DNA of 64,000 nt from Promethearchaeota archaeon (GTDB lineage Archaea > Asgardarchaeota > Lokiarchaeia > Sigyniarchaeales > SOKP01). The translations under genes and the position numbers were made by a program. Every line of letters starts with the position of its first letter. Position 1 is the stretch's first letter. The stretch lies in contig JAHPZA010000009.1 of assembly GCA_019058445.1 (NCBI GenBank), positions 224,001 through 288,000 of the forward strand. Reading direction: 5' to 3'. Under the pieces are notes generated by a model. That model ran no database searches, had not been told where the DNA came from, and saw nothing but the letters and a program-made list of their open reading frames with translations. This document shows positions 1,359 to 55,130 of the stretch, in pieces.

Positions 1359-2402
1359 TTATTTCTTTTTCGCGGATTTAAAATCTTCTATTTCCTTTCT
1401 TTTAGGTGTTTTTATAGGTTTATTTTTATCGATAGCATTATTACATATCCAACATGCGTTCTCCAAATTAATCAGTGAACGAGCACACTTTTCACAATAT
1501 AAAGCTTTACAATCTGGACAAATATAAGTAAAACCTAACGCTTTTCCTTTGCAAACTAAACATATTGTTTGTTCTCTATAAAAAGTCACTTCTTCATCTG
1601 AAAGATGCTCATCGGTTAATTCTGTAAGCCTTTCTATTAAAGTGATATCTGCATCTTCGCCTATGGCCTGCTTATCAGATATTTCAACCGTTTTAATCTT
1701 TTCCTCCCTTAAGCCAAAATACCAAAACCATGAGCTACTTAGCATGCCAATTCTAACTAAAAATAGCCCAATTCCGGGGGATGTTAATGAATCTAATGCT
1801 CCTGCTGAAGCAAACATAATCCACCCTAACGAGAGATAAATAAATTTCCTCTTAATTATGCCGGTCGATTGAAAACTTTTATATAAAAATCCAAAACCAT
1901 TGAAGATCAACGCAGAGAGTAAGAAAAAGGCAATTAAGATAAATGTTGGAGAAGATCTATTGAAATTCACATCAATTATATCTTCTCCAGGATTAGTAGG
2001 GAGTCTAAAAATAAAAGAATTATTTATATCTAGAAATAAAAACAATTCAAAAACAATTCCTATAATAGTATATATCAATACGATAAGCTTTTTTTTCTCA
2101 GGAAGAAGAATTTCGGCTCCTAAATAAAAACCGAAAATTACCGCTGGAGCAACCCACATATAACATAAAATGGCATATAGCTGGTAAGGTTTTAAATTCT
2201 CTCCGGTAATTATAATAGCTATAAAATCAATAAATTGGCCCAAATACAAAAGACTGACAAAAATTGTTAATATTCCTGTATATAATAAAAGCTTGGCATT
2301 CGATTGTTTAGATTTATATATAAAATACAGTCCAAATATGCAACCAGAAATAACTACACCCGATCCTGTAAGGCTATTTAGCCATCCAATAGGAGAAAGC
2401 AT
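1359..2402 (-). CDS. 7TM membrane protein with C-terminal Cys-rich zinc finger (paralog)
   Basis: Same architecture; CLVCK...CPDCKALYCEKC...CWIC. Confidence 0.8.
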   Translation of the reverse strand: MLSPIGWLNSLTGSGVVISGCIFGLYFIYKSKQSNAKLLLYTGILTIFVSLLYLGQFIDFIAIIITGENLKPYQLYAILCYMWVAPAVIFGFYLGAEILLPEKKKLIVLIYTIIGIVFELFLFLDINNSFIFRLPTNPGEDIIDVNFNRSSPTFILIAFFLLSALIFNGFGFLYKSFQSTGIIKRKFIYLSLGWIMFASAGALDSLTSPGIGLFLVRIGMLSSSWFWYFGLREEKIKTVEISDKQAIGEDADITLIERLTELTDEHLSDEEVTFYREQTICLVCKGKALGFTYICPDCKALYCEKCARSLINLENACWICNNAIDKNKPIKTPKRKEIEDFKSAKKK

Positions 2403-41221: not shown

Positions 41222-42478
41222 CTAGTTATTTGGTTTACAAATTCTATTTATTTCATCGATGATTTTTAAAGCTCCAAAGTAGGATTCCGAAAAATTTTTA
41301 CCCTTATATAGCACAGTACAGATTGGATCGCCTTTTAAAATTTTTACATCTTGCTCACTTTTATCATGAACATTTTCAAGGCTATTAATTTTCATTAGCT
41401 GGTTTTTCTCAAGATCATTAGGAGCAAACATGATTAATTTTGTAGCAAATGTTTTGGATTTGGCAACATTTATTGTTTTTTTCACGTACTTCCATTTCGA
41501 TTTATTAAAACTTTTCACATGTAAATCTAATAGGTTAAGATTTAAGGATGATTCTGAAACCCTGATTGACCCTGGAATTCTAGGATTGATTTCCATTAAA
41601 TACGGATAGTGATCTTTTAGCACAAAATCAAAACCATTTATTCCTCTTAAATTTAGTTCATTAGCTAAAGTCTTAGATATTTCTGAAATTAATATATTAT
41701 CTTTGTTAAACAAATTAGCAGGCACGATATTACCGCAATACATGAATTCTTTTGGCGAGTTGACGAATTTTTCACCTATAATTTGTCGATTAATTGAAAT
41801 AATCACGCATTCTTTTCCATTAGAAATAGTTGTACAACTTACTGGGATACCTTCTAAATACTCTTGCACTAACCATTCCGATTCAATAAAACTTTTAGTT
41901 TCCTGTAATTTTAGAAATAGCGATAACGCACTTTGATTCTCAATTTTATAGACATTTATCCCTCCAGCTCCAGACTTTTTCTTCATCACAAAAGGGAATC
42001 GAGCTTTAACATCTATTGCTTTGAAATCTTCATAAGAAATGGTTAAAGGAACCTTATAACCTTTAGATATTAAAAAATCGTATGAGTATTTGATATCTCG
42101 TGCCTTTTTAATAACTTCTATAGAGTTATTCAAATTATTTATTTTGTATTGATAATTGTTTATTGCTTCCAAAATTTTCTCCCTTTCCTCATAAGCATCA
42201 TCCATACCACTTCCTATTATTAAATTTTCTATCTCTGAATGCTTTTTTAGCATATCAATGGTAAACTTAGCTAAAAAAACGTTATATTTATCTCTTATCA
42301 AATTATAGTTCGAATGTAATTCTCTCATTATAATTAGGCTGTCATTCACATTCGGAAATAAATCTATATCTCCAAAGAAGTCTACTGCGTAAACCTCATA
42401 TCCCGCCTTTTTTAGGGAATAAGCTATAGGACGAGTATTAAATCCTACAACTAATACCGATTTTGATTTTTTATCCAT
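41222..42478 (-). CDS. ATP-grasp protein (COG2232-like)
   Basis: VDFFGDID, KKKSGAGG, QEYLEG, GINGFDF, EINPR. Confidence 0.88.
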   Translation of the reverse strand: MDKKSKSVLVVGFNTRPIAYSLKKAGYEVYAVDFFGDIDLFPNVNDSLIIMRELHSNYNLIRDKYNVFLAKFTIDMLKKHSEIENLIIGSGMDDAYEEREKILEAINNYQYKINNLNNSIEVIKKARDIKYSYDFLISKGYKVPLTISYEDFKAIDVKARFPFVMKKKSGAGGINVYKIENQSALSLFLKLQETKSFIESEWLVQEYLEGIPVSCTTISNGKECVIISINRQIIGEKFVNSPKEFMYCGNIVPANLFNKDNILISEISKTLANELNLRGINGFDFVLKDHYPYLMEINPRIPGSIRVSESSLNLNLLDLHVKSFNKSKWKYVKKTINVAKSKTFATKLIMFAPNDLEKNQLMKINSLENVHDKSEQDVKILKGDPICTVLYKGKNFSESYFGALKIIDEINRICKPNN

Positions 42479-43403: not shown

Positions 43404-45641
43404 CTATAGAATTCTTTTCAATTCCAAAATTAAAGCAGAAGGATTGTAGCGATCGAACGCAAATACTTCGGCTTTTGCATATTTGCGAAAATTCTTTTTG
43501 ATTTTTTCTGCCGAGTAAGGATGGATTCCTAAAGCCTGGGTAGCATAACTTTTCTTAGGTTCTAGAACTACTGTATGAATCTTCTGCTTGGCTAATTTTT
43601 TCTGTAAATCTTTCATTTCCTCAACTACTAACATGTAATCATTTTCAATTTGTGCAATAAGATCAGGATGTTTCACTGAAATATTGGCTCCACAATCAGA
43701 AAGAACAAATATAACAGGAATAATATTTCTATTCTTTAATTTCTCAACCTTAATTAATTTCATGCATTTTTGTAATGCGGCCGCCATTGGCGTATAAGAT
43801 TTTCCTTTAATATGTTTTAGCTTTCCCAAAGCGGTTTTAAAATTAACCGTAGGTTTCTGGAGGACGATAGCTTCTTTTCCCCTAAAAATTATTAAAGCCA
43901 GTTTATCTTTTTTACGATACCCTTCCTTTTGCAAAGATGAGATGACGTCGGTCATTTGCTTGATAACATAATACATCGAAGCTGAGCTATCTAACACAAA
44001 AAAAAGAGCTAATGGAGCACGATATTCATAGATTTTATCCATCAGATCATATTTATCAAAATGTATGGGAAATTCCACATTTGTTTTATTGTACACTACA
44101 TTTTTTAAATAATTCCGAATAGTAGCATCCAAGGCAATACTTTTGGGTAAATTTACAGGAGTTCTATAAGACACATACCTGCCCTTTTGAGATGATGCTA
44201 CTTTAATTCTCCTTCCTATACCTCGACCTCCATAATCAGATATCTTCCTATCCTTTCTTATGTTATCCAAAATTGATGTCATTTTTTTTTCCATTTTATA
44301 TATAAATGGCATAACGTCAAGTTCATAATCTGAAAGATTAAACTCTTTTTTCTCCTCTTCAGGGATATCTTTTACTTTCCAGCCTCCGGCAGGAACCGAT
44401 TCTCTTTTTCGTTTATCGGGATATTTAGGAGGTGGTAACTTCTGTTCTTTAGTCTCGGGAATATCTACTTTCTTTGGATCGATAGATTGTCGCTGAAATT
44501 CCTTCTGAGGAGTATCATCATGTTTTAACGGTCCTTCTGTATCCTTATTTGGTTGATATATTTTAGGGTCCTCGTAGGCCTTTTGTATTTTTCCATAAAC
44601 TTCCGCAATTTTTGCTTTAATTTCCTGAGGAGTCATCTCATAATGTAAGGAAGCGATTCGATGCTCAAAGACTAGATCCATAGCTACATTGAGATCTTCT
44701 TCTGTAATCTTTTTTCTATTACTTAAAGCGGCATGAGCACGAGCACATCTAATAAAAGTGATATCTGCTCGTTGAGAAAAAATCTCTAAATCATTTACGA
44801 TTTTTGAGACCAATTCATATATTGAAGCCGGAATTTCTACATGCTTTAATATCTCTCTGGCATTAATTATATTCTGTTTAAGGCTTTCTTGGTCTTTTTC
44901 GTATTTTTTAATAAACTCCTTCGGATTATCGTCAAAATCAATCACTCTTTTAGTTATTTCAGCTCGTAAGGTGGGATCACGAGGAGCTCTAATTTTCACT
45001 TCTAATCCGAGTCTATCCGCTATCTGTGGTCGGAGTTCTCCTATCGAATCCTAATTCGAAGCGAATTGAGAATCTTCGGGATTCATACTCCCGACCAAAA
45101 CGAATCTTGAGGGATGTGATACTGAAATTCCTTCTCTTTCAATAATATTAACACCTGAAGCCGCAGCATCCAAAAGTACATCAACAATGTGGTCTTGCAA
45201 GAGATTTATCTCATCTACATAAAGAATCCCTCGATTAGCTTTAGCTAATAACCCAGGATGAAGCTCGGAGGTGCCTTCGGTAAGCACTTTATCAATGGAA
45301 AGAGATCCGCACACCATATCTTCTGTGACTCCAAGTGGTAAGTTTACAAGACGCATTTCTCTGATTTCTGTTTCAAGTTTACCTTTTTCCTTCTTTTCCC
45401 TACAGGATGCACATAAATCGTCGAGGTTTGATTTAGGATCACAAGCGAAATTACAATCTCCGATAACTTCTATTTTAGGCATAATTTCGACTAGGGATCT
45501 TACAGCAGTAGATTTACCAGTACCTTGGTGTCCAGTTAGCAATACACCACCTATGAGAGGGTCAATTACATTTAAAATTAACCCCATCTTCATTTTATCC
45601 TGACCTAAGATCGCTGTGAAGGGGAAATTAATTTTTTTCAT
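43404..45641 (-). CDS. chlD: ChlD/BchD-type chelatase subunit (AAA+, linker, vWA); exons 45641..45073 and 45042..43404, 735 aa after removing a 30-nt intron
   Basis: FPFTAILGQ, GHQGTGKST, LYVDEINLL, MNPEE/GELRPQIADRLG, SQRADI, vWA DSSAS..TP..SD. The two listed ORFs share one frame and are separated by a single TAG inside the insertion. Confidence 0.88.
45043..45072 (-). other. Candidate 30-nt bulge-helix-bulge (BHB) mRNA intron
   Basis: UCC/GGA helix, CGAA/UUCG 4-bp central helix, and 3-nt bulges GAU and AUA. Cutting after the 2nd nt of each bulge restores GAA GAA GGA (EEG). Confidence 0.88.
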
Positions 45642-45749: not shown

Positions 45750-48689
45750 TTATTGATCTTTATAGTAATCCTTAAAATATTTCATTAAAGAAACAGCTTC
45801 TACGCCTTTCTTAGTTAAGGAGTATTTATAGACCTTTTCAGTTTTGTTGATCTTTACATATAGTTTCATATAGTCGTTTCTTGTAAAAAAAGAGGAGACT
45901 ATCTTTCTTGAGGATAGTCCTAAATAACTTGCTATGGATATATTAGTTATACTATTACCTAATTTTGAGAGCTCATAAATAGCGTATAAAAATTGTTCAA
46001 AATTATCACTAAGCCGTTTAGAGAGTTTTAATGGATTTTTAATGGAATTTTTATTATGAAGAAGTGTAAAATTACGAGTACAGATATTATAGTCTGTTAA
46101 TGCTTTCTTTGCTATGCTTTTATCATTATATATCTCATTTAGTGAATTAAGATAAGTATTATTATCAATAACAGAATGACAATTCGCACAAATATATCCC
46201 CCCTCTTCTTGGTCTAGAGTTTGTACGATTTCAGAACAAGAAAGAGCCTCCGTCTTAAATAAATCAGAAGCTAAAAGTGTCTTTGTATCTTTATTATTAT
46301 GATTAAATTGGAATGAAACTAAATGATCTTTTGTATTAAATTCCCCACACAAATGACATTTATCCCCATAAATAGATTCAATGATATATCTCCTTTTAAG
46401 CAAACTTATTAAACTAAGCTTAATATAACCCTTTTGTTTAATAGATAAGTTCTTTGTCTTATTATGAATATTTATTGAAATCTTTACAAGAGTATGAATC
46501 AATTCAGGAGAAAGTGAAAAGATATTTTGAGGAAATCTATTGGACAATCCTTGCCATGAGATAAGATCCCTAAAATAATTAAAATATTTGCCTGAAATAA
46601 TGTCATGATGGCTTGCGCAAACGAGAACTACTTTTTTTGATTCCATAAATTTAATTAAATTCTCTAAAAATTCCGGGTTGGTTTGATTTTTCATGTACAT
46701 CTCGTATAATGCCGAAGAACTATATTTATATTCCTTTCCATTTTGATCATGGTGAAAATCCAAAGCTTTTAACCTCGAAATATCCGTGTTTGTTTTAAAT
46801 CCTTCTTTTAAGCATAATGGGCATTTTATTAAATTTTCATTATAGATTCCATTGTATATATGGGCTATTATATAAAGTTTTATTCTACTGCCTATTACAA
46901 TTGCTCCTTTATTATATGAATACTGAGTTTTAGATCGATGTGGGATTGCATTTGGGAATTTAACTTTTAAGCTATCATAAATTTCAATAACTGAATAATA
47001 AAATTGCTTGAAGCTTTGGAATAGATTTATATCTTTCTTGTATAAGCATTCTGCTATAGGTTTAACAACTAAACGAATTCCAATTTTTTTGTGTAGTAAA
47101 CTAGATCCATATATCTGCTTTATTACTTCAGTAAGATCATTAAGATATTTGAGAAATTTATCATAATGATTATTTATTAAACTATGTAATAAGTCAATAT
47201 CCTTATTAGATAATTGGGTTGGGAGATTTATATTCTCTAAAATGTCATTTACTAGAGTGAAAGCAATTTTAGCTACCTTTTCTTTTCTAGAACAAATTAA
47301 ATCAAATATATAAAAGGATAGTGCATTCCTTATCCTTGAAAACCCGTAATAGGGCGGGAAATTAAAGTTCTTATTTGTATAATATTCTTTAAAATATTTA
47401 GTATAATATTTAGAAATGCTATATTTTGGTACTCCTGTCAATTCGGGAACGCTAATTTTCGGTAGTGTTTCATTAGCTATAATTACAGTATAAATGATGG
47501 CAGCAGCAATAATTTTTGGATTTGTTTTATTTGAAATTTTTATTTCATTATTTTCCAGTCTTAAAAAAAACTCATCTAAAATCATTTGAGATTCTAATTT
47601 TATCAGTTCTTTTTGTTCTTTTGTACACTTGATTGTACTTAAGATATTTAAATTGGTTTCTACTTTTTTTCTAAAATTTAACATATCAGCTTTAATTACT
47701 TTATCTATTTTTTCATCGTATCTTATAGATTCTTTACTTTTATCTAATTTATTTATGGATTTATTAAGATTTTCATTTTCTTTTTGAGTGTCTAATATTT
47801 CTTCTTCATTTCCATTTAAAAATTCCTCAGATTCTTCTATTAATAATTTTAAATCTTTAATTTTTAATTCATGACATAATCCGGCTTCTAAAAATTCATG
47901 ATAAGCAGAAAAAAGCTCAAAGGCAGATATTGATTTCACTACAACAGTAGGAGATTTCCCTAATAATATAACGCAAGTTTCAGAGTGGAGAATTTTGTCA
48001 TACTTTTCTTTAAGCAGGGAAAGTGTTTCATTTTCCGACAGGTCTTCAAAACTATTCTCCTTTTTTATAGGATCAATTGTATTTAAATATTTTTTCAACC
48101 AGGTTTTGAGAATAATTTGTAACTTATCTGAAAATGGGTTTAGATATTCTTGATCATAAAGTTGTTCTGATTTTTCTCGGAACTCTTTTAAAAAAGTAGT
48201 ATAATCATCAGCGATCTTCTTTAAACCCGAGCGCAACATCTTATATTGGTTTTTTGATTTTTTCTCGTTATTAAGTACTTTTTTCTGCTTCCTACTTAGT
48301 GATTTAATATAAGCCCTTGTTAAACCATCGACATATTGAGAAATAACTTGGGCGCCTCTTCCTATAGGATTACAGTACATCCAACCATTAATAAACTTAA
48401 TTAGCTCATCCGAAGCACTTGTTTTGATTAGATCTATAAGAGTTTCGGGAGATAGACTTGAAATATCAAATATACAGGTATTTACAGCCTCAAAGAGATT
48501 TCCAATAAATTCTTCAACAAATATTAAGGGAATTTTATGCTCAGAACATTTCGGATATTTGCGAAATCCGAGAATACCAAATTTTAAAGGTTTAACTTTC
48601 TCAAGATGTATGCATCCGATTTGAGGACAAATTGCAATCCGATCCTCTTTCACAACTTTTCTGCTGACTTGACTTTCTCCTTTAATCAT
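45750..48689 (-). CDS. 979-aa multidomain protein: N-terminal Zn motif, TFB/cyclin-like segment, two HNH-like Zn domains, C-terminal wHTH
   Basis: CPQIGC..CSEH; NPKIIAAAIIY; CPLC..LDFHH..VCASHH; CHLC..FQFNH..ICANCH; ITNISIASYLGL..YSLTKKG. Confidence 0.7.
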   Translation of the reverse strand: MIKGESQVSRKVVKEDRIAICPQIGCIHLEKVKPLKFGILGFRKYPKCSEHKIPLIFVEEFIGNLFEAVNTCIFDISSLSPETLIDLIKTSASDELIKFINGWMYCNPIGRGAQVISQYVDGLTRAYIKSLSRKQKKVLNNEKKSKNQYKMLRSGLKKIADDYTTFLKEFREKSEQLYDQEYLNPFSDKLQIILKTWLKKYLNTIDPIKKENSFEDLSENETLSLLKEKYDKILHSETCVILLGKSPTVVVKSISAFELFSAYHEFLEAGLCHELKIKDLKLLIEESEEFLNGNEEEILDTQKENENLNKSINKLDKSKESIRYDEKIDKVIKADMLNFRKKVETNLNILSTIKCTKEQKELIKLESQMILDEFFLRLENNEIKISNKTNPKIIAAAIIYTVIIANETLPKISVPELTGVPKYSISKYYTKYFKEYYTNKNFNFPPYYGFSRIRNALSFYIFDLICSRKEKVAKIAFTLVNDILENINLPTQLSNKDIDLLHSLINNHYDKFLKYLNDLTEVIKQIYGSSLLHKKIGIRLVVKPIAECLYKKDINLFQSFKQFYYSVIEIYDSLKVKFPNAIPHRSKTQYSYNKGAIVIGSRIKLYIIAHIYNGIYNENLIKCPLCLKEGFKTNTDISRLKALDFHHDQNGKEYKYSSSALYEMYMKNQTNPEFLENLIKFMESKKVVLVCASHHDIISGKYFNYFRDLISWQGLSNRFPQNIFSLSPELIHTLVKISINIHNKTKNLSIKQKGYIKLSLISLLKRRYIIESIYGDKCHLCGEFNTKDHLVSFQFNHNNKDTKTLLASDLFKTEALSCSEIVQTLDQEEGGYICANCHSVIDNNTYLNSLNEIYNDKSIAKKALTDYNICTRNFTLLHNKNSIKNPLKLSKRLSDNFEQFLYAIYELSKLGNSITNISIASYLGLSSRKIVSSFFTRNDYMKLYVKINKTEKVYKYSLTKKGVEAVSLMKYFKDYYKDQ

Positions 48690-49354
48690 TCTAGTATTCC
48701 CATCCTCTTCTTTATTTCTATATCTTTTGATTGTTCTGTACTATTTAATTGAAGTAATTCTGTGATTTCTTTTTCTAATTTTAAATAGTCTAATTTTAAT
48801 TCAGTGTAAAAATCGGAAAAGAGTGGATAAAATACTCCCTCAACGCTACTTAATATACATGCCAATTTAATCGCGGTATGTAATTCTTGAGGATGATAGT
48901 TAAGTTCAGATTCTGAAAGAATATGAAGATTTTTCCATATTTCACTTTCGAGATGTTTAATCTCCTTCATAAGGGAAATTTCGTGATTATTTGGTTGAAT
49001 CTTTATTTTTTGTAATAGATTTCGGGTTTTTTCGGCTATTGATTCATATTCTATTCCAATCATCACTAAAGTTTTTGAATAACGAGTAAATAAAGAGATA
49101 AGATCTTCTACTCGCTTAGAAATGGAGTCTTTTTTAAGCGTGCGATAATCCATCTTAAATATTGAAAACCTTAAAAGAGTTATATTACTTTTATAATTAA
49201 GAAAGCTGCGTAATTGCCTTGAAAGCTCATTTATTCTATTTGAACCTTCCACTATATACCATTCTAAAAAATCGGAATCTACATCATGCTCTAAATATGA
49301 AGTCGTGTTATATGAATCAATAAACACTTCTTGGCTATTAGCATTCTTTGTCAT
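48686..49354 (-). CDS. Hypothetical alpha-helical protein coupled to the 979-aa gene
   Basis: 222-aa ORF; ATGA 4-nt stop/start overlap. Confidence 0.7.
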   Translation of the reverse strand: MTKNANSQEVFIDSYNTTSYLEHDVDSDFLEWYIVEGSNRINELSRQLRSFLNYKSNITLLRFSIFKMDYRTLKKDSISKRVEDLISLFTRYSKTLVMIGIEYESIAEKTRNLLQKIKIQPNNHEISLMKEIKHLESEIWKNLHILSESELNYHPQELHTAIKLACILSSVEGVFYPLFSDFYTELKLDYLKLEKEITELLQLNSTEQSKDIEIKKRMGILE

Positions 49355-49499: not shown

Positions 49500-50150
49500 A
49501 TGGAGCAAATTCAGCAATTCTTAGATGAAGATGAAGAGATTTTATGGAAGAGAGAAATAATAAGGAATTTGTCTGTGGAAAGAAAATATTTTACAATTTT
49601 TATTATATCATTTCTTGTAGCTTTTTCAACAATTTTTACCTACTTTTTGTATGTTTTTTATCTAACCTTTAGCGTTATATTTATTTTATTATTTATTAGT
49701 GTCTCTCTTTTAATTCTTCCCAATATTATGATAATGATTAAGATTTTAAAAAAATACAAAAATTCTAAGAAACAAGTAATAGAAAAATATCAGCTAAGTT
49801 TAGAAGAACTTAGAAATTATCATTTTTTATGGGTTTTAACAAATAAAAAATGGATCCAGAAAGATTTTACTTCAGATGATAAAGTAAAAATGGATCCCGC
49901 TGGTATCATGCAGCAAAAAGGCGATATTCTACAGATAGATTTGAAATCCATTAGAATAATTGAAATCAAGAGAAACTTCCGTGAGATATCCTTTTATATA
50001 TCGGATGATTATTATCTAGCGAAATCGCCAAATCTCAGTGTTGAAATTCATTCAAAACAAGATTTTAAAAATTTGGAGCAAGTAATTAGAGATTTAATTC
50101 CCATTGAGAAAGAGGATAATAGGAAAAAGAAAGTTACATTGTATACTTAA
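49500..50150 (+). CDS. 2TM protein, possibly with PH-like cytoplasmic domain
   Basis: LDEDEEILW, two TM helices, WVLTNKK. Confidence 0.6.
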   Translation: MEQIQQFLDEDEEILWKREIIRNLSVERKYFTIFIISFLVAFSTIFTYFLYVFYLTFSVIFILLFISVSLLILPNIMIMIKILKKYKNSKKQVIEKYQLSLEELRNYHFLWVLTNKKWIQKDFTSDDKVKMDPAGIMQQKGDILQIDLKSIRIIEIKRNFREISFYISDDYYLAKSPNLSVEIHSKQDFKNLEQVIRDLIPIEKEDNRKKKVTLYT

Positions 50151-50246: not shown

Positions 50247-51197
50247 TTAAAATTTTCTTGAGATTTCAGCTAATCTTTCATCTAATTTAGAAATGACTTC
50301 ATCCCATTTTGAGAGAGTATTATTAATTTGAGGTATAATCCCGGCTCTCTCTTTATATTCTAAATATTCCATGAATTCTTTTATATGTCCAATTTTGATG
50401 AATGTTTCCGCCACGAATTCTCTGATTTCTTTTGTTTGTGTTTCCAAAACCTCAGATATTCTGCTTGTCTCACCTTTTCGCGTTAATGTCGTTAAATATT
50501 CATCTGTACCAACTAGTAAAGAATTTAATTGAGTTATTCGCTCATTGACAAAAAGTTCATAACTTTCAATTATCTTATCTTTCGGTAAAAAATTGGTAAT
50601 ATCAACAACGAGTTTTTGTGCTTGTTGAAGGAATTGTTCATCATTTTCAAATCCCTCAATCTCAAAATCAACTTCATGATATCCTGAATGGGCACCCTTG
50701 CTAGTATCATCTAATCTGAAAATCTTGAAACCGGGATCACCCTTTAATTGGATCACAGGATCTCCCTTTTTACTCGGCAGTTCTAGCTGTTTTATTAATC
50801 TTTGATGATTGAATACCAATGAAATAGCTAAGGGATTAAATTGTTGATAGCTTAAAGTAGTTTGAAGATCTAAATGTGTCATCATAACTTTCATACCAGG
50901 ATGGGAATGCCACCATCCTATCGTAAATTCTCCTTGCGCAAAAGCCTCATCATCTATTATAGCAAATGATTCATAATCTTCATTTGACCAGTATACCTTA
51001 TCAATAATGTCTTCTGGTCTTTTTTTTTGATGTGTTATAGGATAAGTATTTGAGATTATTACATCATCCCCTTCATTTTTCCCTATAAAAATTCCATATA
51101 CTTCTAACCAATCATCAAAGGGTATTTTTTGATTGGCAAATCTCACCGCAGAAGCAATAATTGTAAAATAAACCTTTTTCGAGATTTTTACTGTCAT
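50247..51197 (-). CDS. MPN/JAMM metalloprotease-family protein with helical C-terminus
   Basis: EVYGIFIG, GWWHSHPG-x5-THLD. Confidence 0.88.
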   Translation of the reverse strand: MTVKISKKVYFTIIASAVRFANQKIPFDDWLEVYGIFIGKNEGDDVIISNTYPITHQKKRPEDIIDKVYWSNEDYESFAIIDDEAFAQGEFTIGWWHSHPGMKVMMTHLDLQTTLSYQQFNPLAISLVFNHQRLIKQLELPSKKGDPVIQLKGDPGFKIFRLDDTSKGAHSGYHEVDFEIEGFENDEQFLQQAQKLVVDITNFLPKDKIIESYELFVNERITQLNSLLVGTDEYLTTLTRKGETSRISEVLETQTKEIREFVAETFIKIGHIKEFMEYLEYKERAGIIPQINNTLSKWDEVISKLDERLAEISRKF

Positions 51198-52283: not shown

Positions 52284-53729
52284 TTGAGTAAGAGGTCTAA
52301 GAATAAAGAAGTTGAGAAACGAGTCATTATTAAGTCAATTGCATATTATAAAATGCTTATTCATGTATTGCGATTTGGTAATAAGGCAAGAGACCCAAGA
52401 GATTATCGAGAAGTTATGGGCATGTTGATAGGCCATCTTGAGGGAGATCCCGACCACCGTGGGATTCAAAATGTTATTGTAGAAGATGCTGTACCCGTTT
52501 CTCATGGAGGATCAATAGAGGTTAATTTTGCACCTCAAGATTACGTAACTTTTGCGACGATCGATGAGAATTTTGCTGAAAAAAATTGGTGGACATTAGG
52601 GTGGTATCATAGTCATCCCGGCTTAGGAATCTTTTTCTCCGGAACTGATATTAATAACCAATTAGGATGGCAAACACCTAATCCCAGTGCGATAGGAATG
52701 GTATTTGATCACACGGTGTTAGAAACTCCAGGAGATTTAGGATTCAGGACATTTAGACTTGATGATCCTTCGAAAGGCTCAAGGTCAGGCTATCACGAAG
52801 TAGAGACTGTAGTGGAGCCTCCCGATAATATCGAATATTATTTTAAAATGATGAAAGTAATTGATAGTATTCATTCTAAAGAGCCTCCGATTATGGAAAT
52901 TAATGAAACAGCAGACCCGTTTGGTGATATTAATTTTCCGACTCAAAACGAGATCTTATCAAAAAAACCTGAATTGCATTTGCCAAGTCTATTATCAGCA
53001 CTGCAAGAGGGAGTTTCGAAATTTATAGAATTATCTATTGGACCATTGATCGAATTTTTAAATTCTTGGAGCCAAAACACTATAAAATGCGTAATAGATA
53101 ATAATATACAGATGCGAAAAGATCTAATTGCGTTAAAAGATATTATGACTGAAGGAATAAATAATCTAAAAAATACATTTCAATTTACATTTAGAGATAA
53201 GCTTAATGAACTTGAAGTCTATGTGGATGATAGATTAGAGGATTTTGACAATGATCACCAAACAGTTAAAGAAATTATTACTCAGCTAAAGGAACAATTT
53301 AATCATTTAATAGATACTCTATTTCAAGAGAAAATAAAAGATACTATTGATAAAATCTTGGGAGATTTTGAAGAAGGAATAAAAATTTTAGCTGAAATCG
53401 ATCATAATAATACTAAAAACTCTGAAAAATTAGATACGCTCCAAAACTCTTTAGCTGGTTTATCAGAGAAAACAAAATCTATAGAAAATTTAACAATTAA
53501 TGAAATAGGGAATGAACATGAAAAATTTATGGGAAATTTAGGAGAAAAAATTGATGATATTAAAACATCCCTAGTTGATATTAAGAAAGAAGGAATTAGC
53601 TTTTTTACTGAATTAGAGAATCTATTATCAGATCTTAAATCTTCAAAAGAAACTCTTTATGAGAAAATTAAATCAATAGAAAAAGAAAAAAAAGAATTAT
53701 CAAATGAGTTAAAAAAATTAAAAACATAA
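52284..53729 (+). CDS. MPN+/JAMM (Rpn11/CSN5-like) protein with long coiled coil
   Basis: EVMGMLIG, GWYHSHPGLGIFFSGTD (intact H-x-H-x7-S-x2-D). Confidence 0.92.
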   Translation: MSKRSKNKEVEKRVIIKSIAYYKMLIHVLRFGNKARDPRDYREVMGMLIGHLEGDPDHRGIQNVIVEDAVPVSHGGSIEVNFAPQDYVTFATIDENFAEKNWWTLGWYHSHPGLGIFFSGTDINNQLGWQTPNPSAIGMVFDHTVLETPGDLGFRTFRLDDPSKGSRSGYHEVETVVEPPDNIEYYFKMMKVIDSIHSKEPPIMEINETADPFGDINFPTQNEILSKKPELHLPSLLSALQEGVSKFIELSIGPLIEFLNSWSQNTIKCVIDNNIQMRKDLIALKDIMTEGINNLKNTFQFTFRDKLNELEVYVDDRLEDFDNDHQTVKEIITQLKEQFNHLIDTLFQEKIKDTIDKILGDFEEGIKILAEIDHNNTKNSEKLDTLQNSLAGLSEKTKSIENLTINEIGNEHEKFMGNLGEKIDDIKTSLVDIKKEGISFFTELENLLSDLKSSKETLYEKIKSIEKEKKELSNELKKLKT

Positions 53730-53744
53730 AGGAATTGAATAGAA

Positions 53745-55130
53745 ATGTCTCTGCCGTCAAATAATAAGACTAATTTTAAAGAGGGAAAAGTTCACATTTC
53801 AAAAGAAGCTTTTCGAAATATGCTTACACATGTATTGCGATTTGGTAGTAATGCCTTAGATAATAGCGTTGAAGTTATGGGAATCTGTTTGGGAAAAGTC
53901 CTTCCAAACGGAATTGATGTAGCTTTAATAAATGCTATTCCAATAAAACATGGACCCCAAGTATCTAACGGCTTTTCACCAGAAGATCACATAACTTTTA
54001 AAAAAATTGAGGAACATTATACAAACCAAGATCTTCATATTATTGGTTTCTATTTATCACATCCAGGCTGGGGTTTATTCTTTTCGGATATTGGAATAAA
54101 AAACCATCGACATTTTCAAAATGAGCAAAACCCACATGGTTTTTGTATAGTATTTGACCATACTATAATGGATGCGGAAGGTAACTTTGGTTTTGAAATT
54201 TTTCGATTAGACAACTATTCAGATCAAATGGCAAAAGAACACCACAAGGTAAAGTATGAACTTGAACCTCCTGACACTTTGGAGTATTTCAAATGGATAC
54301 AGAAATTTGTAGAAGATGCTCAAAAAAGAGAACCCATTTTAATTAAAGAATTTAATGAGTTAATTGATACTCCTCCTAGTGATCTTCAAGAAATACCAAA
54401 ATCAGAAATAGAATTGGCCGTGTTAAAAGAAGAAAGGGAAAGGCATAGTGTAATGAAGCCTATAATTTCCGGGTTTCAAGAGGGTTCATCGCAATTTTCA
54501 GATATATTCGCCAACATTTTTGAAACTCAAGTTGACAATTGGGTTAAAGATGTAAATCAGGGAACTTTAGATGGTAGTGTACTAATCCGTGATAGTTTAA
54601 CCGAAATGAAAGAAAAAGTCTCCTCTGGGTTTACCAAACTAGATAGTTGGTTAAATAGAAATTTGAATGAAATTGTGGATGGATTTAAAGAACAATTTTA
54701 CCTGGATGTAGATAAACGGATTCAATCTCAAAAAGAATTAGTTATTCACTCCTCTAAAACTAAAGATGATATTATGAATAATTATAATACTAACTTAGAG
54801 GCAAACTTCAATAATTTAACTAATGAAATAGACAATAAAACTAAAACTCTAACAGATAATCTAGCCCAAACATTACGTATAACCTCAAAAATGGATGATA
54901 ATATCAGTAATTCTTCAGGGCAAATTACTAAAATCATTGATAATGCGACAAACCTATCTACTAACATAAAAAACGGAGTAAAAGCACATTTAACACCATT
55001 AGAGCAACAGATGAGTAATAAAATTAAAGATTTAAGTAAAGATTTAAATGTTGTTAAGGATGATTATTCGAAGTTAAGCAATATTATTAAAAAATTATCC
55101 AAAACAGTCAATAGTCTAAAAGAACTTTAA
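53745..55130 (+). CDS. MPN- (catalytically degenerate) protein with long coiled coil
   Basis: EVMGICLG, GFYLSHPGWGLFFSDIG (first His and the Asp ligand are lost). Confidence 0.88.
   Translation: MSLPSNNKTNFKEGKVHISKEAFRNMLTHVLRFGSNALDNSVEVMGICLGKVLPNGIDVALINAIPIKHGPQVSNGFSPEDHITFKKIEEHYTNQDLHIIGFYLSHPGWGLFFSDIGIKNHRHFQNEQNPHGFCIVFDHTIMDAEGNFGFEIFRLDNYSDQMAKEHHKVKYELEPPDTLEYFKWIQKFVEDAQKREPILIKEFNELIDTPPSDLQEIPKSEIELAVLKEERERHSVMKPIISGFQEGSSQFSDIFANIFETQVDNWVKDVNQGTLDGSVLIRDSLTEMKEKVSSGFTKLDSWLNRNLNEIVDGFKEQFYLDVDKRIQSQKELVIHSSKTKDDIMNNYNTNLEANFNNLTNEIDNKTKTLTDNLAQTLRITSKMDDNISNSSGQITKIIDNATNLSTNIKNGVKAHLTPLEQQMSNKIKDLSKDLNVVKDDYSKLSNIIKKLSKTVNSLKEL

What the first reader, a model, noticed from the sequence alone, without database searches (positions are those of the whole stretch)
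45027..45097. Canonical BHB intron in the mRNA of an Asgard chlD-type chelatase gene
Seen in sequence: on the minus strand the gene reads ATG AAT CCC GAA GA[TTCTCAATTCGCTTCGAATTAGGATTCGAT]A GGA GAA CTC CGA CCA CAG. The 30-nt bracket (45072..45043) contains an in-frame TAG. It interrupts the conserved ChlI/ChlD sensor-1 motif MNPEEGELRPQ, and deleting it restores that motif exactly. The RNA folds as outer helix UCC/GGA, central 4-bp helix CGAA/UUCG, 3-nt bulges GAU and AUA on opposite strands, and inner stem UCU-C-AAUUCG/CGAAUU-A-GGA. Established: the archaeal splicing endonuclease EndA cuts after the second nucleotide of each bulge (GA^U, AU^A). Those are exactly the boundaries predicted independently from the protein motif. 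The exons add a further stem (UGGUCGGGAGU 45097..45087 with ACUCCGACCA 45036..45027) built from GC-rich codons in an AT-rich genome, which suggests selection on RNA structure. BHB mRNA introns are best known from crenarchaeal cbf5; I do not know of one in a chelatase gene or an Asgard mRNA, but cannot check the literature. Inference: expression needs EndA/RtcB splicing, which could act as a switch (unspliced 196-aa truncated AAA fragment vs spliced 735 aa), loosely analogous to HAC1/XBP1 non-spliceosomal splicing. Automatic annotation would call this a pseudogene.
Basis: partly seen in the sequence, partly recalled or inferred. Interest (0 to 1): 0.96.

Follow-up and report, generated by a model that had tools for sequence, protein, structure and literature searches.

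The report
tRNA-type mini-intron in Asgard protein gene
A 30-base insert shaped like the introns that archaea cut out of tRNAs splits a conserved ATPase gene of a Loki-type Asgard archaeon, and related genomes keep it in a way that only makes sense if the messenger RNA is cut and rejoined; the papers I could search report this inside a coding sequence only for cbf5.

Summary
On the minus strand, 45072..45043 is a 30-nt insert with an in-frame TAG inside the invariant MNPEEGELRPQ motif of a ChlI-AAA+/vWA gene. Removing it gives one 735-aa frame.

The RNA can form a canonical bulge-helix-bulge motif. The cuts its geometry predicts are the only ones that restore the protein.

New evidence comes from orthologs. 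Eight other species in two other genera of the same family carry an insert at the same codon:
- Seven carry a clearly homologous 32-nt insert, which shifts the frame, so read-through is excluded.
- One carries a 30-nt AU-rich insert whose hairpin is kept by compensatory changes.
- All give about 735-aa frames once the insert is removed.

The closest relatives (94% identical protein) lack it precisely. Four further species have a 30-nt, less regular BHB-like insert at a second site in the same gene. EndA and RtcB are encoded in the genome.

No RNA data exist for this organism, so splicing is inferred, not shown. The "switch" idea has no support. The gene is a ChlI/ChlD-family ATPase, but the genome has no ChlH/CobN partner, so "chelatase" is doubtful.

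This scan has already noted many such introns on other Asgard DNA and elsewhere in this genome. In the papers I searched, only cbf5 (coding) and one Haloferax 5' UTR are reported.

The parts
43404..45641 (-). Whole interrupted gene (pre-mRNA coding region). It encodes a ChlI-type AAA+ domain, an AAA lid and a vWA domain, 735 aa after removal of the insert.
   Evidence: ORFs. Spliced translation has a single stop, at the end. Pfam: Mg_chelatase, AAA_5, AAA_lid_2, VWA_2. More than 100 Asgard homologs of 733-736 aa at 75-92% identity. ChlI structures match at E 3e-96.
45073..45641 (-). Exon 1. It ends ...AUG AAU CCC GAA GA, phase 2 inside the second Glu codon of MNPEEG.
45043..45072 (-). 30-nt BHB intron. 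It carries an in-frame TAG (45053-45051) and a hairpin of 3 + 6 bp with a 3-nt loop.
   Evidence: Homologous 32-nt and 30-nt inserts sit at the same codon in 8 other species.
43404..45042 (-). Exon 2. It starts A GGA GAA CUC CGA..., and the stop codon is included.
   Evidence: GELRPQIADRLGLE, upstream of the first possible internal start (GTG 44999), is invariant among homologs, so it must be translated.
45075..45078 (-). Central 4-bp helix, 5' strand (CGAA, exon 1). It pairs with UUCG 45048-45045 in the intron.
   Evidence: These columns are paired in 93.5% of cells across 8 orthologs.
45045..45048 (-). Central 4-bp helix, 3' strand (UUCG, intron).
45072..45074 (-). 5' bulge GAU. The predicted cut is GA^U, between 45073 and 45072.
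   Evidence: Geometry. The cut position within the bulge is from established knowledge of EndA, not tested here.
45042..45044 (-). 3' bulge AUA. The predicted cut is AU^A, between 45043 and 45042.
45079..45081 (-). Outer helix h, 5' strand (UCC). It pairs with GGA 45041-45039.
45039..45041 (-). Outer helix h, 3' strand (GGA).
45087..45097 (-). Exon-exon stem, 5' strand (UGGUCGGGAGU; the Leu, Val, Gly and Ser codons).
45027..45036 (-). Exon-exon stem, 3' strand (ACUCCGACCA; part of the Glu, Leu, Arg and Pro codons).

Best explanation
The 30 nt at 45072..45043 (minus strand) are an archaeal bulge-helix-bulge intron inside the coding sequence of a ChlI-AAA+/vWA gene.

Proposed mechanism:
1. The gene is transcribed with the insert.
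2. Exon 1, the intron and exon 2 fold into helix, 3-nt bulge, 4-bp helix, 3-nt bulge, helix. An exon-exon stem of about 10 bp stabilises this.
3. The tRNA splicing endonuclease EndA cuts in both bulges (GA^U and AU^A).
4. RtcB joins the exons to give ...CCC GAA GA|A GGA GAA..., and probably circularises the 30-mer.
5. Only the spliced mRNA encodes the 735-aa protein with an intact sensor-1/arginine-finger region.

What is shown and what is inferred:
- Shown: the structure, the exact match between the geometric cuts and the protein-restoring cuts, homologous inserts in other genera, intact reading frames, and the presence of the enzymes.
- Inferred: the cutting and joining themselves.

I read the intron as a tolerated, probably constitutively removed element rather than a regulator. 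It has persisted through speciation in one genus and is absent from most relatives.
For: 1. Canonical geometry. The central helix is 4/4, the bulges are 3 nt, h is 3 bp, and h' is 3 + 6 bp. The fold lies within 1.6 kcal/mol of the optimum. Random genomic 30-mers at this site match the full pattern in 7 of 400,000 trials.

2. The insert sits in an invariant motif. All listed homologs are 726-750 aa long, close to the 735-aa spliced frame, and the nine aligned across the site (88-96% identical to the query over that segment) have an unbroken MNPEEG(E/D)LRPQ.

3. A pattern search of 400 Asgard species genomes found an insert at this codon in 9, all in one family, and none with the reversed control pattern. 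Seven of the other genus carry a 32-nt insert about 85% identical to this one. Because 32 is not a multiple of 3, neither read-through nor a tolerated peptide insertion can explain it.

4. In every one of these genes, exactly one frame-restoring pair of cuts fits BHB geometry. Removing it gives an open frame of about 735 aa. These genes are only 70-78% identical to each other in protein or DNA, yet show no other lesion, so the genes are under purifying selection.

5. The structure is conserved by compensatory change. 79% of cells are paired, against 25-61% when the partners are slid. Five pairs change on both sides, which 2 of 500 shuffles reach. The first intron base in the 32-nt forms varies A/G/U while the exon bases stay fixed.

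6. The codons between the TAG and the first possible restart (GTG 44999) encode the invariant GELRPQIADRLGLE, so they are translated.

7. EndA and RtcB are encoded in the genome. Published work assigns Asgard archaea a broad-specificity (alpha-beta)2 EndA (PMC5829648).

8. This is the only copy of the gene in the genome at E <= 1e-50.

9. An EF-2 paralog in the same genome carries an independent 30-nt canonical BHB insert, which I verified.

10. The insert is present in the DNA of a second sample.
Against: - There is no RNA evidence of any kind for this organism. Neither a spliced junction nor a circular intron has been seen.
- RNAfold's unconstrained optimum does not form the 4-bp central helix.
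- The 32-nt orthologous forms are not strictly canonical. They have an extra unpaired U opposite the 5' bulge, or can be drawn as a 5-bp helix with a 2-nt bulge. The AU-rich form has only 3 of 4 central pairs.
- Only one Pfam EndA hit was found, although the literature expects two subunits.
- My two genome-wide BHB-plus-ORF scans did not separate signal from background, so they give no statistical support at genome scale.
Confidence: 0.87

Rival explanations
1. The intron is real, but splicing is regulated. It acts as a switch between a truncated 196-aa AAA fragment and the full protein, as proposed for HAC1/XBP1 and, as a negative regulator, for the cbf5 intron.
For: The insert splits a catalytically essential motif, as the cbf5 intron does (PMC2738675). 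The exon stem looks selected, so the efficiency of structure formation matters.
Against: It is absent from the closest relatives (94% identical) and from about 125 of 134 genomes of the family. The same kind of insert occurs in unrelated genes of this genome. No sensor or condition is known. Nothing in the sequence speaks for regulation beyond the mere presence of an intron.
Confidence: 0.07
2. The gene is a pseudogene or a fissioned gene. The insert is a random indel, and either no product or two separate products are made.
For: An in-frame stop sits in an essential motif. Automatic gene calling gives two ORFs, of 196 and 531 aa.
Against: No other lesion exists in 2.2 kb. Homologous inserts sit in species whose genes have diverged to 70-78% identity yet remain fully open after removal. 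The invariant residues between the stop and the next possible start are preserved. It is the sole copy in the genome. BHB geometry arises by chance in about 2e-5 of trials.
Confidence: 0.03
3. The insert is dealt with at translation, either by read-through of TAG (for example as pyrrolysine) giving a 10-aa insertion, or by ribosomal bypassing as in T4 gene 60.
For: In this genome the insert is 30 nt and in frame with a single TAG. ARAGORN calls a doubtful tRNA(cta) in the genome.
Against: The homologous inserts in the other genus are 32 nt and shift the frame. The AU-rich form carries two TAA codons. The restored Glu codon is split in phase 2, or phase 1 in the 32-nt forms, so there are no matching take-off and landing codons (read). 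A 10-aa insertion would sit in an invariant AAA+ motif.
Confidence: 0.02
4. The insert is an assembly or sequencing artefact.
For: The genome is metagenome-assembled. Contigs of two related genomes, and of a second sample, end within a few bases of the junctions.
Against: An identical sequence occurs in a second sample's contig. Homologous inserts occur in 8 independently assembled species genomes.
Confidence: 0.01

Closest known systems
cbf5 pre-mRNA intron of Crenarchaeota (Desulfurococcales, Sulfolobales; Watanabe 2002; Yokobori 2009, PMC2738675)
   Same: Both are BHB-type introns inside a protein-coding sequence, dependent on EndA. Both split a catalytically essential codon or motif. Both are patchy among relatives, with apparent precise losses.
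   Different: The host gene differs (ChlI-AAA+/vWA ATPase, not cbf5) and so does the phylum (Asgard, Loki-type family). Here a second intron site exists in the same gene in other species. The splice point differs by one base between genera. Splicing is not yet shown experimentally, whereas cbf5 splicing is.
Archaeal tRNA and rRNA BHB introns (hBHBh' motif; Marck and Grosjean 2003, from my own knowledge)
   Same: The motif is identical: 3-nt bulges, a 4-bp helix, flanking helices and a small hairpin intron. The presumed enzymes are the same (EndA, RtcB), and both are encoded here.
   Different: The substrate is an mRNA. The outer helix is built from codons, so it is constrained by the protein sequence and achieved through synonymous codon choice.
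BHB intron in the 5' UTR of Haloferax volcanii HVO_1309 (Schwarz 2020, PMC7714728)
   Same: It is an EndA substrate in an mRNA that yields a circular RNA.
   Different: That one lies in the untranslated leader (46 nt) and does not interrupt a reading frame.
HAC1/XBP1 unconventional mRNA splicing (IRE1 plus tRNA ligase or RtcB)
   Same: Both are non-spliceosomal cut-and-ligate removal of a short intron from an mRNA. RtcB is the ligase in metazoa.
   Different: The endonuclease and the RNA motif differ (twin stem-loops, not BHB). That system is stress-regulated, and no regulation is indicated here.
Mg-chelatase ChlI/ChlD and fused putative cobaltochelatase (TIGR02442)
   Same: The N-terminal AAA+ module matches ChlI structures at E 3e-96, and the AAA-lid plus C-terminal vWA architecture resembles ChlD.
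   Different: Scores lie below all equivalog cut-offs. No ChlH/CobN is found in the genome. The conserved neighbours are three JAB/MPN genes, not tetrapyrrole genes.

Membership tests
Archaeal BHB (EndA/RtcB-spliced) intron | Two 3-nt bulges on opposite strands, separated by a 4-bp helix. | tested here: met
   CGAA/UUCG with bulges GAU and AUA. The 32-nt orthologs have CCGA/UCGG with bulges AGN and AAA plus one extra unpaired U. The AU-rich ortholog has 3 of 4 pairs.
Archaeal BHB (EndA/RtcB-spliced) intron | Flanking helices h (exon-exon) and h' (within the intron). | tested here: met
   h is UCC/GGA plus a 10-bp exon stem. h' is 3 + 6 bp. It is paired in 75-79% of cells across 8 orthologs, against 25-61% when slid.
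Archaeal BHB (EndA/RtcB-spliced) intron | Cuts set by the geometry give a functional product. | tested here: met
   The single geometry-compatible cut pair restores MNPEEGELRPQ and an open frame of about 735 aa in all 9 species.
Archaeal BHB (EndA/RtcB-spliced) intron | Splicing endonuclease and RNA ligase are encoded by the organism. | tested here: met
   PF01974 at C9:770595-770843 (68 bits) and PF01139 at C1:114713-116020 (574 bits). A second (beta) EndA subunit was not looked for.
Archaeal BHB (EndA/RtcB-spliced) intron | Excision is seen in RNA (spliced junction, circular intron). | not testable with these tools
   No RNA run holds this sequence. The metagenome scan for the spliced junction found only intronless relatives and unrelated genes.
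cbf5 pre-mRNA intron | The host gene is cbf5 (pseudouridine synthase) of Crenarchaeota. | tested here: not met
   The host is a ChlI-AAA+/vWA gene of an Asgard archaeon. The mechanism is the same, but it is not a member.
Mg-/Co-chelatase D-type subunit (ChlD/BchD, TIGR02442) | ChlI-like AAA+ N-terminal module and a C-terminal vWA domain. | tested here: met
   Pfam Mg_chelatase, AAA_lid_2 and VWA_2. ChlI structures 6l8d, 8osf and 1g8p match.
Mg-/Co-chelatase D-type subunit (ChlD/BchD, TIGR02442) | Score above the curated equivalog cut-off. | tested here: not met
   Tested on the 92%-identical intact ortholog P0001. TIGR02442 scores 587 against a cut-off of 779, BchI 384 against 467, and BchD 323 against 500.
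Mg-/Co-chelatase D-type subunit (ChlD/BchD, TIGR02442) | A large porphyrin-binding partner (ChlH/CobN) is present. | tested here: not met
   PF02514 has no match in the genome, which is 92.6% complete.
HAC1/XBP1-type regulated unconventional splicing | Condition-dependent cleavage by a sensor nuclease. | not testable with these tools
   No expression data exist. The RNA motif is BHB, not the IRE1 twin stem-loop.
Programmed translational bypass (T4 gene 60 type) | Matching take-off and landing codons flank the gap. | tested here: not met
   The restored codon is split in phase 2 (phase 1 in the 32-nt forms). No matching whole codons flank the gap (sequence).

The most novel reading that the evidence does not exclude
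BHB mini-introns are mobile elements of Asgard protein-coding genes. This one spread between genera, or has survived since their common ancestor with many precise losses. It carries a short tract of flanking exon sequence, enters or persists at a 'proto-splice' site whose codons already supply the outer helix (CCN...GGN), and can slide by one base when the helix register changes. If so, messenger-RNA splicing by the tRNA machinery is a routine part of gene expression in the closest archaeal relatives of eukaryotes.
Probability: 0.3. Interest if true: 0.9.

Novelty: new member of a known kind. Interest (0 to 1): 0.72.

Why it matters
In the papers I could search, EndA-type splicing of a coding sequence is documented for a single archaeal gene, cbf5, in Crenarchaeota. 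This is a well-supported case in a different gene and in Asgard archaea, the lineage closest to eukaryotes.

It comes with a small natural series:
- The same intron in three genera.
- Frame-shifting and in-frame versions.
- A one-base shift of the splice point.
- A second site in the same gene.
- Precise absence in sister species.

Such a series makes gain, loss and the structural rules of mRNA BHB introns directly testable.

It also matters for annotation. Gene callers split or discard such genes. It raises the question of how an organism usually assumed to couple transcription and translation avoids translating unspliced mRNA.

Tried and rejected
- RNA evidence: no RNA holder is listed for this sequence. 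The only runs that could be laid were DNA contigs, and none joins across the insert.
- A metagenome scan for the spliced or intronless junction with intron-type exon codons gave 27 hits. Twenty-six are unrelated GC-rich ChlI genes and one is an intronless relative of the same genus. No spliced copy of an intron-bearing allele was found.
- Two genome-wide scans for strict BHB geometry plus ORF fusion recovered this intron. Overall they gave as many hits as decoy geometries (705 against 678; 876 against about 916), so they say nothing about how many such introns the genome holds.
- The same strict filter did not recover the acs inserts reported in earlier notes, although the acs gene is clearly split and holds stops.
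- Rfam and ARAGORN find nothing in the window.
- No other copy of the intron sequence exists in the genome, so it is not a repeated element there.
- Rejected readings: TAG read-through, translational bypass, gene fission, pseudogene and assembly artefact. The reasons are given under the rival explanations.
Full report
**1. Observation**

- The bracket is 45072..45043, and its in-frame TAG is at 45053..45051.
- ORF calling gives two pieces, of 196 aa (45641..45051) and 531 aa (from GTG 44999).
- Deleting the 30 nt yields a single 735-aa frame through ...SMNPEEGELRPQIADR....

The RNA can form the following motif:
- outer helix UCC/GGA
- central helix CGAA/UUCG
- bulges GAU and AUA
- an intron hairpin of 3 + 6 bp around one C.A mismatch
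- an exon-exon stem of about 10 bp

With the BHB enforced the fold costs -23.9 kcal/mol. The unconstrained optimum costs -25.5 and differs only in the central helix.

As a chance test I placed random 30-mers from the same genome at this site. They give a 4/4 central helix plus at least 3 bp of inner helix in 263 of 400,000 trials. They give the full hairpin in 7 of 400,000.

**2. The host gene**

- Pfam finds Mg_chelatase/AAA_5 in exon 1, and AAA_lid_2 plus VWA_2 in exon 2.
- The N-terminal half of the intact ortholog P0001 matches ChlI structures (6l8d, 8osf, 1g8p) at E down to 3e-96.
- More than 100 homologs at 75-92% identity come from Loki-, Thor-, Heimdall-, Odin- and Hod-type Asgard bins. 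All listed are 726-750 aa long (nearly all 731-736), consistent with an uninterrupted gene.
- An alignment of nine of them across the site shows MNPEE-G(E/D)LRPQIADRLGLEV unbroken. The window has ten extra codons exactly there.

The name 'chelatase' should be used with care:
- On the 92%-identical intact ortholog, the best NCBIfam models stay below their cut-offs. TIGR02442 scores 587 against 779, BchI 384 against 467, and BchD 323 against 500.
- The genome (4.6 Mb, 10 contigs, 92.6% complete) has no ChlH/CobN match.
- The conserved neighbours, in the window and in two relatives, are JAB/MPN genes and an ATP-grasp gene.

**3. Comparative evidence (new here)**

A protein search of 154 genomes of the same order found the gene in 147. 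Stops or a break appeared near residue 200 in several of them.

A DNA pattern search then asked for 20-50 extra bases between ATGAAYCCNGAR and GGNGANYTNMGNCCNCAR. Among 400 Asgard species genomes it hit nine, all in one family. The reversed control pattern hit none. The nine are:
- this genome
- seven of 42 genomes in another genus
- one in a third genus

A tenth genome, in a fourth genus, has the insert at a contig end.

The seven share a 32-nt insert that is plainly homologous to the window's. Compare UUCUCAAUUCG.UUCGAAUUAG.AUUCG in both. Because 32 is not a multiple of three, only removal at the RNA level can restore the frame.

The third genus has a 30-nt AU-rich insert with two TAA codons. 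It aligns position by position with the window's hairpin and keeps that hairpin through two double changes (U-A to A-U, and C-G to U-A) and two repaired mismatches.

For every gene I listed all cut pairs that restore MNPE(E/D)G(E/D)LRPQ. Exactly one pair per gene fits BHB geometry:

| Gene set | Cut after | Insert length | Central helix |
|---|---|---|---|
| This genome | GAAGA | 30 | 4/4 |
| Seven genomes of the other genus | GAAG | 32 | 4/4 (CCGA/UCGG) |
| AU-rich form | GAGGAA | 30 | 3/4, with 9-bp inner helix |

- In the 32-nt forms, one U lies unpaired opposite the 5' bulge.
- The splice point therefore differs by one base between genera, along with the helix register.
- In the 32-nt forms the first intron base varies A/G/U, while the exon bases stay fixed.

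After removal, all genes give frames of about 735 aa with no other lesion. Yet they are only about 71-73% identical to the window's gene in DNA.

A formal count on the eight-sequence alignment gave:
- 79% of cells paired, against 25-61% with slid partners
- five pairs with changes on both sides, which 2 of 500 shuffles reach
- central-helix columns paired in 93.5% of cells

**4. History of the intron**

- The gene tree follows the genera.
- The window's gene is nested, with 99/97 support, among intronless genes: G045 at 94% identity and two metagenome contigs.
- In the other genus, of 12 sampled genes, six have the site-1 insert, two have an insert at a second site, and four have none.
- So either an old intron was lost precisely many times, or it moved between lineages.

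Around the junction, the window's DNA identity to its nearest relatives drops from 0.83 to 0.73-0.78. Its identity to an intron-bearing gene of the other genus rises to 0.85. All eight stem codons differ synonymously from the 94%-identical relative.

Exon-exon duplex energy averages -15.9 kcal/mol in 8 intron-bearing genes and -10.6 in 33 intronless genes. The nominal p of 4e-4 overstates this, because relatives are not independent.

Both convergent selection for the stem and co-conversion of flanking exon sequence would explain this pattern. I cannot separate them.

**5. Second site**

Four species of the other genus are intact at site 1. They carry a 30-nt insert with a TAA after ...EVYGK, flanked by a GGAAAA repeat. 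The best cut pair has:
- 3 of 4 central pairs
- AAA-type bulges
- a 2-bp outer helix
- an inner hairpin that starts after one mismatch

That cut pair is among the three (of the 12 tried) that keep the conserved Lys in both genomes, and of those it is the only one with more than one central pair. This is a more relaxed motif. I rate it as probable, not certain.

**6. Machinery and context**

- EndA (PF01974) and RtcB (PF01139) are encoded in the genome.
- Published analysis assigns Asgard archaea an (alpha-beta)2 EndA with the L1 loop, which confers broad specificity (PMC5829648). That would accommodate the relaxed variants.
- ARAGORN finds only 23 tRNA genes, 19 of them with introns. This agrees with a recent preprint on heavily interrupted Asgard tRNA genes (10.64898/2026.10.13.758758), which does not mention mRNAs.
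- Elsewhere in this genome, I verified that an EF-2 paralog carries a 30-nt insert ending in TAG, with a 4/4 central helix (ACAG/CUGU) and a 9-bp hairpin.
- The acs gene and several acyl-CoA synthetase paralogs hold in-frame stops.
- Earlier notes of this scan list many such cases in this and other Asgard genomes. I used them only as leads.

**7. What is not shown**

- No RNA run holds this sequence.
- DNA contigs from a second sample confirm that the insert is in the DNA.
- A metagenome scan for the joined form found no spliced copy.
- Splicing is therefore an inference from structure, conservation and coding logic.
- The regulatory-switch idea is untested, and the patchy distribution argues against a conserved role.

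**8. Literature**

- In the searchable library, BHB introns in mRNAs are reported for cbf5 of Crenarchaeota (PMC2738675), where they lie in the coding sequence.
- They are also reported for the 5' UTR of Haloferax HVO_1309 (PMC7714728). That 2020 paper states that cbf5 was the only other example.
- Five searches found no paper on BHB introns in Asgard protein genes.
- Papers outside the library cannot be excluded.

**9. Verdict**

This is a real feature, and very probably a genuine EndA/RtcB-type intron in an Asgard pre-mRNA (confidence 0.87). It is a new member of the kind known from cbf5, with an unusually informative set of orthologous variants.

Noticed in passing
L034 about 2135-2170 (+); also L035, L037, L038: A second intron site exists in the same gene in four species of another genus. 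It is a 30-nt insert with a TAA after ...EVYGK, flanked by a GGAAAA repeat, with a relaxed BHB (3 of 4 central pairs, AAA-type bulges).
   Followed up: partly
window 50250-51197 (-), 52284-53726 (+), 53745-55127 (+), 41225-42478 (-): Three JAB/MPN-domain genes and an ATP-grasp gene lie beside the AAA+/vWA gene, in the same order as in relatives L001 and L002. With no ChlH/CobN in the genome, this suggests a role other than chelation, perhaps in a ubiquitin-like or proteasome-lid-like module.
   Followed up: partly
window 45750-48689 (-), plus 48686-49354 (-) and 49500-50150 (+): A 979-aa ORF without any Pfam match carries repeated CxxC...HH...N...H patterns that look HNH-like. Together with two small unknown ORFs, it sits between the AAA+/vWA gene and the JAB gene, which are adjacent in relatives. 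This may be an inserted element.
   Followed up: no
L046 (G046:C155 end), L045 (G100:C88 end), and the contig of run X2 ending at window 45038: Three independent contigs end within 0-5 bases of a splice junction of this intron. This would be expected if alleles with and without the intron co-occur in the samples and split the assembly graph. Low coverage is the alternative explanation.
   Followed up: no
G000:C10:682100-684277 (-), locus L059: An EF-2 paralog of the same genome has a 30-nt insert ending in TAG, between ...QMTD and SDDEE..., with canonical BHB geometry (central helix ACAG/CUGU, 9-bp hairpin).
   Followed up: yes
G000:C10:621084-623089 (-); C6:861976-863748; C6:220650-222302; C10:295477-296580; C6:876338-877153: The acs gene is split and holds three stops, and four acyl-CoA-synthetase paralogs hold one to three in-frame TAA codons each. 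They are candidates for further mini-introns. My strict BHB filter did not resolve them.
   Followed up: partly
G000, whole genome: ARAGORN finds only 23 tRNA genes in 4.6 Mb, 19 with predicted introns, including doubtful calls for tRNA(cta) and tRNA(tca). Most tRNA genes are probably too interrupted for the program to find.
   Followed up: no
window 45022-45101 (-) compared with L005 and L044: In the roughly 90 nt around the junction, the window resembles intron-bearing genes of another genus (0.85 identity) more than its own nearest relatives (0.73-0.78, against 0.83 overall). This may be a co-conversion tract or convergent selection for the stem.
   Followed up: partly
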